From Eledone cirrhosa (taxonomy: Eukaryota), in the NCBI GenBank assembly GCA_964016885.1, contig OZ024741.1, forward strand, positions 368,156,001 through 368,220,000: a stretch of 64,000 nt of DNA, written 5' to 3'. Position numbers and translations under genes: made by a program. The notes beneath the pieces are model-generated. The model worked only from the letters and a program-made list of their open reading frames with translations. It did no database searches and had not been told where the DNA came from. Below are positions 6,146 to 19,444 of the stretch, piece by piece (positions within the stretch are counted from its first letter, which is position 1; the number at the start of each line of letters is the position of its first letter).

Positions 6146-9100
6146 GTGAGTGGTAATGTGAATTTCTCCAGTGATATACTCCAATTTATTCATCATTAAC
6201 ACTTTTCTATTGTTAATATTTATATGTAACTTATTTTTGTGCTATATGTTTTGTTTCTTGATGGTTTTAAAAGTTCATTATTGTTGCATTATTATAGTAA
6301 AATGGTCAGTGAAAATTAAACACGTTCCACATTGCCGCTGCCATTTTTATTCTACACATGGAAGTCAGCCTTATGTTATATATGTATAAATATCTATCTA
6401 CATCAAAATTAATGAATACACTATGGTGATTAGTTTCCTTCATTTAAATTTTTGAATTTGATTTATAAAATGTTATAAATTTCATTATCTTTAAGAACGA
6501 ACATAGAAAATTTCGCCGCGTGATTGGCCGTTCATTAGAATTGATCCACGTGCAAATGTGTAAATTTCAGCATCCTCAATAGGATTCAACGGGGGAAATC
6601 TAGACTTTTATATTTGAATTTTATACTAAATAATTAGCAAGGGAATTATAGACAACTTTTAGATTTCATAAGAATATTAAAATATCTCGTCCAATTCTTT
6701 GCGTGTATATATATATATACACGTTAGAGTTCTCATTGGCTCAGTGTATGTCCTATAAACAGCGGTGCATGCGACATGAATCCGATGTATCGGATTCTCT
6801 TTTTCTTTAAAATCAAAATCTTCGTACTTGGTAGTTGCTGCAGTCATGCCTATACAACACTGTTATTAAAGCCTCCTCGACCGACTAGAAAATGCCTGAA
6901 ATCACACATTACCATTTGGGTTAATTGCACTAATGAAAAATGTTTGTCGGGACATCTATGATCAGGGCTGACCTCGGGCTAAATAACAAAGGCGTATTAA
7001 AAATTGGTAAAACATCTTAACTGTTTCTGTCTAATTGTGAGCGAATCTGTTATGCACTCGCTTTCTAGACGTGGTCGCTCAACCTTTTGGAAAGGCACAT
7101 TAGATGGACTTATTGCTAACTTTATAAAGAATATATTATTAACTAGAATAATTATCACTATTGCTGACAAATATCATACGCAGTAATAAATTAGGCGTTT
7201 TAAAGCATGTTTTTCCTTGCTTTCATTTTTGTGTATTTTCAAATTGTGAAATGAAAGGACGGGTTAGCCATTAGGGCTTTTGTGGTCATCGTAGGGTTTA
7301 TTTTAGGAAAATTCACGGATACTCTTGGCGGCTAGTTCTAGAGTATGACTTCATTATTTGTGGGTTAAGTTTTAAAAAGTAATTAAGTATTTTGCTTGTA
7401 TATAGATATATTTGGGATCTTGTGTAATTATATAATTAAATTTAAAATATATCGCACACATGCAAACGTAATGTCCGGGGAGCTAACTCGTGTTTTTTTT
7501 TTTTATATATACGTTCGTAATTGTTAGTCTTATTTTCAGGAAAATTTTAGAAATTCACCACATATTCAACGTCTTCATAAAATGTTCTTATGTCTACTTC
7601 GATTTTGAAACTTAAATCATCTATATTAGCTTAAAGATTGCGAATAGGTAGAATATGTTTGTATGATCTATCTCATGGTGTGGTTTGTTTTTGTTTCTTA
7701 GGTAAGCCCAGAGGTTTGAGAACTGCACGAAAGCTAAAAAATCATCGCCGCAAACAGAGATGGCACGATAATGACTACAAAAAGGCAAATTTGGGTACCA
7801 GATATAAGGCCAATCCTTTTGGAGGTTCTTCCCATGCTAAGGGAATCGTTTTAGAAAAAGTGTAAGTATGCTTGTGTATGTATATAATGGAGTGTTTCAG
7901 AATCTATAAAGTAGATGTGTGTGTATAGTTATAATCTGGGTTTATTTTTATTTGTTCATCTTTGCAGTGGTGTTGAAGCCAAACAGCCCAACTCAGCCAT
8001 CAGAAAATGCGTCAGAGTACAGCTTATAAAGAATGGTAAAAAGATTACAGCCTTCGTACCTAACGATGGTTGTTTAAATTTCATTGAGGTATGTTTTTCT
8101 TTGTTATTAATGTAGGCCCAATATGTTTGATTAGGTGAATGTTTATATTACTATATGCCAAAGGATGAGCTCTAACTTGTATCTCCTGATTTTGCTATAT
8201 ATATGGAGGATGTACATACCGGTTCTTGAGACTGATGGCGTATCTTTAGTTGTGAATCCCTCATCTCTCCTTTCACTATGAGAAAATGCTGTTTATGGGT
8301 TTCCCTGGTAAGTGTTGGATTGGTTTCTGGGCATTTACCTGTTGTTTTAAACTAGGCCTGTCTAAATTAAAAAATAAAACCCTTTATACAAAAGGTTACG
8401 TTTAAGACATTATCTCGCAGAACTCAGTTTGAAAGAGTAGAGTTGGTATATAATCAATAGCTTTCTTTGATCTGGTATATACACCATGCAGGCATTGTAG
8501 AGTTTATAGGGTTCAATCTTTGGTTATTTTTTTTATAGCTGGAGGCTTTGGGATGAAGTACAATTTTATTTACCAAGAGTTTATTCTCAAATTTCTTTAC
8601 AAGTGAACAAAAAATATATGTAATAATGACTTTTTTTAATCATTTCCATCAAACTTAGTTTCAGTTTAGCCGTGGACAAAGATACTTTTTGTGTGGCTTC
8701 TTGAATGTTTTCTTCTTCCTTATATATAATTTGTTCCCATCAATCATGCCACCAAAAAGGTGTGTTTTGGGGACAGCAGAAGAATTGAATTTTGATGTCT
8801 GGGGCTATATATTAAATAGAAATTGAAAAATGTGATTTCCAGAAATGTATGGGGATGGTGTTTCAGTTATGTAATCTTTTTCTGTTATCATAGGCTTATA
8901 TAAGCTTCGTTGGTGTGGATTTTGAATTTTCTACTAGTGTGTTCAGTTGTGTTATGCTAAAGGATGAGCTCTAACTTGTATCACCTGATTATTGCCATAT
9001 CCATGGAGGGCGTACATTCCAGTTCTTGAGACATATCATTTAGTGGGCAATATATGCTTAGAGAATAAAAGTAACACACAATCTGTTCATTTGCTTTTCT

Positions 9101-19444: not shown

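What the first reader, a model, noticed from the sequence alone, without database searches (positions are those of the whole stretch)
8154..18898. Eleven box C/D snoRNA copies from three families packed into a single RPS23 intron
Seen: intron 3 (8089-19297, 11.2 kb, versus 106 bp for intron 2) has sense-strand 50-90 nt units in the order A,A*,B,A,B,C,C,B,B*,C*,B (* = decayed). Each intact unit has C/D boxes and a closing terminal stem. Established: vertebrate intronic snoRNAs are typically one per intron, released by debranching and exonucleolytic trimming; multi-snoRNA introns are known mainly from plants and Drosophila. Inference: 7-8 intact guides in one intron need either endonucleolytic cuts between them, unannotated non-coding or poison exons that subdivide the intron, or only one snoRNA maturing per lariat. 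Any of these would make RPS23 an unusual polycistronic snoRNA host.
Basis: partly seen in the sequence, partly recalled or inferred. Interest (0 to 1): 0.85.

Follow-up and report, generated by a model that had tools for sequence, protein, structure and literature searches.

The report
Eight snoRNA genes in one intron
One long intron of a ribosomal-protein gene in a mollusc-like animal holds eight intact-looking and three broken copies of small RNAs of the kind that guide chemical marking of ribosomal RNA, a larger version of an arrangement already known in flies, worms and plants, and it is still open how the inner copies are cut free.

Summary
Intron 3 (8089-19297) of an RPS23-like gene carries 11 sense-strand box C/D units in the stated order: 8 with C box, D box and a 6-7 bp terminal stem, 3 decayed. 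Family B is a SNORD43/snR70-type guide for the 18S C1703-equivalent site. Families A and C have no significant target in proxy rRNAs. One spliced run joins exon 3 straight to exon 4, so constitutive exons between the copies are unlikely; rare poison exons are not excluded. Old paralogue pairs are conserved only inside the snoRNA body, so several copies, inner ones included, were probably under selection. Five of seven spacers have no strong hairpin, so a dedicated RNase III cut between all units is not supported. Best reading: a birth-and-death cluster made by local duplication, released from one lariat by splicing-independent assembly, then nicking and trimming (inferred). Mature RNAs were not observed. 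Intronic clusters are known in animals (Drosophila H/ACA, three C/D RNAs in C. elegans top-2), so this is a larger, mixed-family variant, not a new kind. The scan earlier noted a 20-copy intronic snoRNA array on other DNA.

The parts
6142..6145 (+). host gene exon 1, coding part (ATGG), preceded by a pyrimidine-rich tract
7702..7861 (+). host gene exon 2
   Evidence: spliced contig in run X4
7968..8088 (+). host gene exon 3
   Evidence: X4 contig skips 7862-7967 (GT..AG) and runs on into exon 4
8089..19297 (+). intron 3, 11,209 nt, host of the cluster
8154..8242 (+). A1, intact orphan C/D RNA (C AGGATGA 8162, D' 8186, D 8232; 7-bp stem)
8953..9032 (+). A2*, decayed (D box and 3' stem lost)
9503..9583 (+). 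B1, intact SNORD43-type guide (C 9511, D' 9539, C' 9555, D 9573)
10612..10701 (+). A3, intact orphan C/D RNA (C 10620, D' 10644, D 10691)
11607..11687 (+). B2, intact SNORD43-type guide (C 11615, D' 11642, D 11676)
12143..12211 (+). C1, intact orphan C/D RNA (C ATGATGA 12150, D' 12173, D 12202)
12536..12604 (+). C2, C and D boxes and stem intact, D' changed to CTAA
13528..13742 (.). 104-bp near-perfect palindrome centred on two head-to-head transposon ends, just upstream of B3
13789..13869 (+). B3, intact, 100% identical to B1 over 112 nt
14009..14050 (+). B4*, decayed copy of B5 (3' half deleted)
14621..14676 (+). C3*, decayed copy of C2 (C box shortened, D box deleted)
14695..17936 (.). piggyBac-type DNA transposon: TTAA ends, about 570-nt inverted repeats, broken DDE_Tnp_1_7 frames on both strands
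18821..18898 (+). B5, intact SNORD43-type guide of a second subfamily (C ATGATGA 18829, D' 18855, D 18888), 399 nt before the 3' splice site
19298..19444 (+). host gene exon 4, coding part
   Evidence: 27-nt loose end of the X4 contig

Best explanation
Intron 3 is a true single intron that acts as a polycistronic box C/D snoRNA precursor. Three ancestral guides (A, B, C) were multiplied by local segmental duplication; young copies often decay and older ones are kept. SHOWN: the anatomy, the B guide's pairing with the 18S C1703-equivalent site, and exon 3-exon 4 splicing as the main form. INFERRED: the copies assemble snoRNPs on the nascent intron through their own 6-7 bp terminal stems, without help from the branch point. 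After debranching, exonucleases trim to the outermost assembled copies. Inner copies are freed when a spacer is nicked, either without a specific signal or at transposon hairpins in the last two spacers, and both new ends are then trimmed. snoRNA-capped long intermediates (sno-lncRNA type) are expected.
For: 7 scan hits in 64 kb, all sense-strand in this intron, null mean 0.05. B pairs 13 bp (1 G-U) in the D'+5 register in 3 of 3 full animal-type rDNA units, 0 of 60 shuffled guides as good; best Rfam hit SNORD43, E 0.0058 on 141 nt. An X4 contig of depth 2987 runs from exon 3 into exon 4, while the six listed intron pieces have depth 3-5.5. Body against flank identity: A1/A3 0.91 vs 0.49-0.57, C1/C2 0.94 vs 0.47-0.55, B1/B5 0.83 vs 0.46-0.56; background mean 0.51, 99th percentile 0.60. 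All 3 decayed copies still share flank with an intact copy (0.66-0.75), so they are young. Splice-like sites are not above chance. No unit sits at the splicing-dependent position; the nearest is 399 nt from the 3' splice site (the optimum of about 50 nt from the branch point is from PMC8162545).
Against: No mature 65-90 nt RNA was observed for any copy. Only 6000-12930 was laid on reads (7 of 11 units), on contigs of one spliced run; 111 joints and 1107 loose ends were not shown. No Rfam family reaches its gathering score. A and C guides do no better than shuffles on proxy rRNAs (15-53 of 60 shuffles as good). 5 of 7 spacers have no strong hairpin, so no cutting signal is identified. Short gene conversion could also produce body-only identity. 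The A C-box is non-consensus.
Confidence: 0.55

Rival explanations
1. Rare poison or non-coding exons, or nested/recursive splice sites, divide the intron in a minority of transcripts, so each snoRNA leaves in its own small lariat and the mRNA by-product is destroyed by NMD.
For: A strong donor-like site CTG|GTAAGT at 8308/8309 just behind A1, and one candidate exon 8539-8759. One snoRNA per intron is the usual animal rule. NMD targets are rare in steady-state RNA (established knowledge). Unshown low-depth joints could hide such forms.
Against: 4 donor-like, 13 acceptor-like and 1 exon-like site against null means of 3.8, 11.6 and 1.3; both recursive-like sites lie in transposon ends (crude matrix with recalled frequencies). 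No conserved acceptor at a fixed distance behind the paralogues. One X4 contig is continuous over 11862-12782, across C1 and C2 (could be pre-mRNA or DNA carry-over).
Confidence: 0.2
2. Lottery: assembly far from the branch point is inefficient, so most lariats load zero or one snoRNP. Exonucleases run through the unassembled copies and no internal cut is needed; extra copies only raise the dose.
For: No unit is near the branch point, no processing hairpin in the first five spacers, and the host is highly expressed. This also predicts selection on inner copies.
Against: All eight units have 6-7 bp stems and strong boxes, which should favour assembly. With eight units, even modest efficiency gives two or more per lariat (inference).
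Confidence: 0.15
3. Only one or two copies work; the rest are pseudogenes kept similar by recent duplication or gene conversion.
For: 3 of 11 copies are broken; B1 and B3 are 100% identical over 112 nt; C2 has a changed D' box; A and C have no demonstrated target.
Against: Identity stops at the stem ends in the A1/A3, C1/C2 and B1/B5 pairs while flanks are at background. B5 and B1 differ in the middle but keep boxes, guide and stem. Each of the three families would need at least one working copy, and all B and C copies but B5 are internal.
Confidence: 0.1

Closest known systems
Human SNORD43 (U43) / yeast snR70 / Drosophila snoRNA:CD15, guide for 18S Cm1703 / Cm1639 / Cm1831 (PMC11014333, Table S4 rows read)
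   Same: D' guide GACGGGCGG in the same register, and the 3' GA(U/G)UGUCA element of the Rfam SNORD43 consensus.
   Different: Four intact copies in one intron. Human SNORD43 is mono-intronic in RPL3. Score 22.7 bits, below the gathering score of 45.
Drosophila intronic H/ACA snoRNA clusters, e.g. Psi28S-3316a-e in dom (PMC11028025 Table S1)
   Same: Several paralogous snoRNAs in an intron of a protein-coding gene, ribosomal-protein hosts included (RpS4, RpS16).
   Different: H/ACA class. Drosophila C/D RNAs follow one per intron (PMC3089462 passage; PMC1821038 passage). Here the cluster is all C/D and spaced 0.3-5 kb apart.
C. elegans top-2 intronic cluster K12D12.6/.7/.8, three C/D RNAs (PMC11028025 Table S1)
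   Same: Several C/D RNAs annotated as an intronic cluster in an animal protein-coding gene.
   Different: Three members against eight intact here; family make-up and expression were not checked by me.
Human sno-lncRNAs (SNORD116 region, SLERT, LNC-SNO49AB; PMC11028025 passages)
   Same: Two snoRNAs in one intron block exonucleases from both ends, as predicted here for any lariat with two assembled copies.
   Different: Two snoRNAs define a stable lncRNA; here eight units from three families, one a housekeeping rRNA guide that must be released.
Plant intronic snoRNA clusters (rice; Liang et al. 2002, title seen only in a reference list; content recalled)
   Same: Mixed-family C/D clusters within one intron.
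   Different: Plant clusters are tightly packed and cut by RNase III-type processing (recalled); here 5 of 7 spacers lack a strong hairpin.

Membership tests
box C/D snoRNA | C box RUGAUGA near the 5' end and D box CUGA near the 3' end | tested here: met
   8 of 11 units; A copies carry AGGAUGA, one mismatch
box C/D snoRNA | terminal stem closing the C/D motif | tested here: met
   6-7 bp in 8 of 11 units; whole-unit folding energy is not unusual except C2 (z -2.4), as expected for C/D RNAs
box C/D snoRNA | internal D' and C' boxes | tested here: met
   D' CUGA in 7 of 8 intact units, CUAA in C2; C' clear in B1-B3, degenerate in A, C and B5
box C/D snoRNA | accumulates as a discrete RNA bound to Snu13, NOP56/58 and fibrillarin | not testable with these tools
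   only contigs of one spliced run were available
SNORD43/snR70 (family B) | 10 or more bp guide before D' placing 18S C1703/C1639 at position +5 | tested here: met
   13 bp with 1 G-U for B1, B3, B5 and 11 bp for B2 on proxy rRNAs; the host's own 18S was not available
SNORD43/snR70 (family B) | Rfam RF00221 gathering score of 45 bits | tested here: not met
   22.7 bits for B5, 18.3 for B1 and B3; best-ranked family for B5
canonical rRNA methylation guide (families A and C) | 10 or more bp antisense element at D or D' +5 on a conserved rRNA site | tested here: inconclusive
   no better than shuffles on 3 proxy rDNA units; host rRNA, snRNA and tRNA not available
SNORD59/snR54 (family A) | guide placing 18S A1031/A974 at position +5 | tested here: not met
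   A pairs 8 nt plus a separate 9 nt around this site, but the D+5 base falls 4 nt upstream of the known one (offset from recalled numbering)
intronic snoRNA cluster | two or more snoRNAs share one intron of the host's main transcript | tested here: met
   exon 3 joined to exon 4 in run X4; definition from PMC11028025 supplement
RNase III-processed polycistron (yeast/plant type) | double-stranded cleavage signal between successive snoRNAs | tested here: not met
   first five spacers score 10-15.5 against null maxima of 14-19.5 (B2-C1 15.5 vs 14.5, marginal); strong stems only in the two transposon-bearing spacers
sno-lncRNA | stable long RNA with a snoRNA at each end | not testable with these tools
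   needs northern blots or long reads of non-polyadenylated RNA
dispersed transposon fragment | copies scattered outside the locus at high number | tested here: not met
   no copy elsewhere in 64 kb; DNA contigs through A3, B2, C1 and C2 have depth 9-19 while neighbouring repeats sum to thousands or more (depth is only a rough guide)

The most novel reading that the evidence does not exclude
All eight copies mature from each lariat through an animal endonucleolytic step that needs neither RNase III hairpins nor extra splicing, with stable snoRNA-capped intron pieces as products; and family A is a new kind of guide that clamps 18S helix 24 with two separate antisense elements at a site not known to be methylated.
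Probability: 0.18. Interest if true: 0.75.

Novelty: new variant of a known kind. Interest (0 to 1): 0.45.

Why it matters
How inner snoRNAs are released from an animal intron that holds several is not settled in the papers I read. This locus offers eight C/D copies that can mostly be told apart by sequence, in one highly expressed host, with evidence of selection on inner copies. One small-RNA library and one NMD-blocked library would separate nick-and-trim, lottery and hidden-exon models. It also shows snoRNA birth and death inside one intron and adds two orphan C/D families with no Rfam entry, in a group whose snoRNAs appear little studied.

Tried and rejected
No whole genome is held, so genome-wide copy number and the host's own rRNA could not be examined. 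No RNA holder listed; X4 is taken as RNA only from its spliced contig. Parts of the stretch without X4 cover (much of intron 1, A1, A3) are no evidence. X4 contig 9281-9578 ends two bases behind the B1 D box, but B paralogues diverge at that point, so I read it as an assembly-graph break. Viral contigs held no 18S motif. Weak Rfam hits of C to SNORD2, SNORD100, SNORD98 and SNORD36 rest on boxes and stem; the guides differ, so they were rejected. Candidate C targets considered: 5.8S position 14 (9 bp only with the fungal-type sequence, 19 loci), a second 5.8S site with a mismatch (3 rows) and a bulged 28S match (by eye); none is canonical. The B D-guide match to the 18S GUAGUGAC site has a mismatch and is no better than shuffles; the element can also pair inside the RNA. 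An H/ACA-like scan of intron 1 and of most non-transposon parts of intron 3 found none (crude). Homologue searches with a neighbouring gene's exon found nothing, so the taxon is not confirmed. A cephalopod 18S primer paper's supplement held none of six motifs. No look-alike earlier findings by place or sequence.

Full report
1. Observation. Four exons (6142-6145, 7702-7861, 7968-8088, 19298-19444) with GT..AG borders give a 143-aa frame. I recognise it as RPS23/uS12 from memory; no call confirms the name. The taxon is also unconfirmed: a mollusc, probably an octopod, judged from recalled repeat types; two homologue searches with a neighbouring exon found nothing. A C/D scan (C box, inner CUGA, D box, stem of 4 bp or more) over both strands of the 64 kb window gives 7 hits, all in this intron; 100 resampled introns give a mean of 0.05 and a maximum of 1 (thresholds set after I had seen the units). 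C2 is the eighth intact-looking unit, with D' changed to CTAA. A2, B4 and C3 have lost a D box or more. Rfam finds nothing at gathering score in the window.

2. What the units are. Family B: the best Rfam match of B5 is SNORD43 (22.7 bits, E 0.0058 on 141 nt, gathering score 45), sharing the guide and a 3' GA(U/G)UGUCA element. I fetched 103 eukaryotic rDNA loci with a motif that contains the target site, so the site is present by construction; the test is the register and length of pairing. In 3 full animal-type units chosen from the 103 (borders), the B1 and B5 D' guides pair 13 bp with one G-U and place the C of ACCG-C-CCGUC at +5; 0 of 60 shuffled guides do as well. This is the site listed as human Cm1703, yeast Cm1639 and fly Cm1831 (PMC11014333, supplement Table S4 rows); matching the motif to that number is from recall and from its position in the proxies (1643, 1703, 1823). 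Families A and C: 15 to 53 of 60 shuffles score as well as the real guides, and Rfam has no useful match. They remain orphans until tested on the host's own RNAs. One lead: A has an 8-nt element before box D and a 9-nt element after box C that pair with neighbouring stretches around the 18S Am974 site in 2 of the 3 proxies; 28 of 3000 shuffles give the second element. This was found after the fact, and the +5 base is not the known methylated one.

3. One intron or several. Four runs hold the stretch, none on record as RNA. I laid all four on 6000-12930, which covers 7 of the 11 units. Run X4 has a contig of depth 2987 that skips intron 2 and continues from exon 3 into the first 27 further letters of exon 4; X1-X3 have no such joint. 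So X4 behaves as RNA and the main form removes 8089-19297 whole. The six listed X4 intron pieces have depth 3-5.5; one is continuous over C1 and C2. A crude splice-site scan finds 4 donor-like, 13 acceptor-like, 2 recursive-like and 1 exon-like site against null means of 3.8, 11.6, 0.4 and 1.3; both recursive-like sites are in transposon ends. Constitutive internal exons are therefore unlikely; rare ones are open.

4. Are several copies functional. Global identity of body against four 80-nt flanks: A1/A3 0.91 vs 0.49-0.57, C1/C2 0.94 vs 0.47-0.55, B1/B5 0.83 vs 0.46-0.56, B1/B2 0.95 vs 0.46-0.70; background mean 0.51, 99th percentile 0.60. The three decayed copies each still share flank with an intact one (A2/A3 0.72, C2/C3 0.75, B4/B5 0.66). 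Old pairs keep only the snoRNA and young copies break, which is what purifying selection on both members of the old pairs predicts. Short gene conversion is the alternative; B1 and B3 are identical over 112 nt. The units are not transposon parts: there are no copies elsewhere in the window, and DNA contigs through them are of low depth. The intron's length owes much to a 3.2-kb piggyBac-type element and other repeats.

5. Mechanism. The optimal place for splicing-dependent C/D assembly is about 50 nt before the branch point (PMC8162545, passage). No unit is there: B5 ends 399 nt before the 3' splice site and A1 starts 65 nt after the 5' site. All eight have 6-7 bp stems, which allow splicing-independent assembly (recalled). 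Two assembled snoRNPs in one intron stop exonucleases from both sides (PMC11028025, passage), so inner copies need an internal cut, a sub-lariat, or neighbours that failed to assemble. Best local stems in the first five spacers score 10-15.5 against null maxima of 14-19.5; only the two transposon-bearing spacers hold strong stems (100.5 and 30). There is thus no ordered set of RNase III signals. I put nick-and-trim release from one lariat at 0.55, rare hidden or nested splicing at 0.20, a one-per-lariat lottery at 0.15 and mostly pseudogenes at 0.10. The release step is inference; no mature RNA was seen.

6. Comparison with what is known. Animals mostly follow one snoRNA per intron (PMC11028025 passages; PMC1821038 passages), and in Drosophila the clusters are H/ACA while C/D RNAs are single (PMC3089462 passages). 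Intronic clusters are nonetheless catalogued: 369 occurrences of 'intronic_cluster' against 3274 of 'mono_intronic' in the first 300 of 389 pages of that review's supplement, all kingdoms as far as read. Of the 30 rows I saw, four C/D rows were in C. elegans (three in top-2), two in zebrafish, and up to five H/ACA copies shared one Drosophila host. I did not see the other 339 rows, so larger animal C/D clusters may be listed there. RPS23 had no entry as host in the pages read except one H/ACA RNA in C. elegans rps-23. My searches found no paper on this locus or on mollusc snoRNA clusters (open-licence library only, listings and abstracts). PMC12205218 was seen as passages and PMC8074623 only by a supplement search. 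The scan itself earlier noted a 20-copy snoRNA cassette in one intron of another genome (e1-7359387, unchecked); notes on recursive and nested snoRNA introns in fungi led me to name nested splicing in the first rival.

7. Verdict. Real and well above chance. It works like an intronic snoRNA cluster and meets that definition; B is a SNORD43-type guide by function although below Rfam's cut-off; A and C are orphan C/D RNAs. It is a new variant of a known kind: larger, all C/D, three families, widely spaced, in an animal ribosomal-protein gene, with signs of selection on inner copies and no visible cutting signal. Interest 0.45; the bolder reading (a signal-free endonucleolytic release plus a new two-part guide) has probability 0.18 and would deserve 0.75.

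Noticed in passing
window 8123-8248, DNA runs X1 and X2: A contig of depth 12-14.5 matches A1 and its 5' flank with 8 differences and 2 gaps, one of which gives the consensus C box ATGATGA. It is neither A2 nor A3, so a fourth A-like copy exists, on the other haplotype or at another locus.
   Followed up: no
window 10627-10690 and 8169-8231 (family A guides): Two separate elements of 8 and 9 nt are complementary to neighbouring stretches of 18S around the Am974/Am1031 site in 2 of 3 proxy rDNA units; 28 of 3000 shuffles give the second element (found after the fact).
   Followed up: partly
window 13528-13742: A 104-bp, 98% palindrome made of two head-to-head transposon ends plus duplicated B-upstream flank, probably a fold-back rearrangement that created B3. 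It is a strong double-stranded RNA substrate inside the intron.
   Followed up: partly
window 14695-17936: piggyBac-type element with transposase fragments on opposite strands (15221-15937 minus, 16781-17176 plus) and an internal terminal repeat near 16158, which suggests one element inserted into another.
   Followed up: partly
window 11850-11890: A 40-nt piece of an extremely high-copy tandem repeat (summed depth about 600,000-700,000 in the DNA runs, head-to-tail joints of about 40 nt).
   Followed up: no
window 8309-8314: Perfect GTAAGT donor-like site 66 nt behind A1; candidate end of a poison exon.
   Followed up: partly
window 54002-57362: Broken non-LTR retrotransposon with endonuclease- and reverse-transcriptase-like frames on the minus strand (named from recalled motifs).
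   Followed up: no
window 1912-2064 and 23313-23840: 48-nt three-copy repeat related to repeats 21 kb away (families D4, D6, D7, D14).
   Followed up: no
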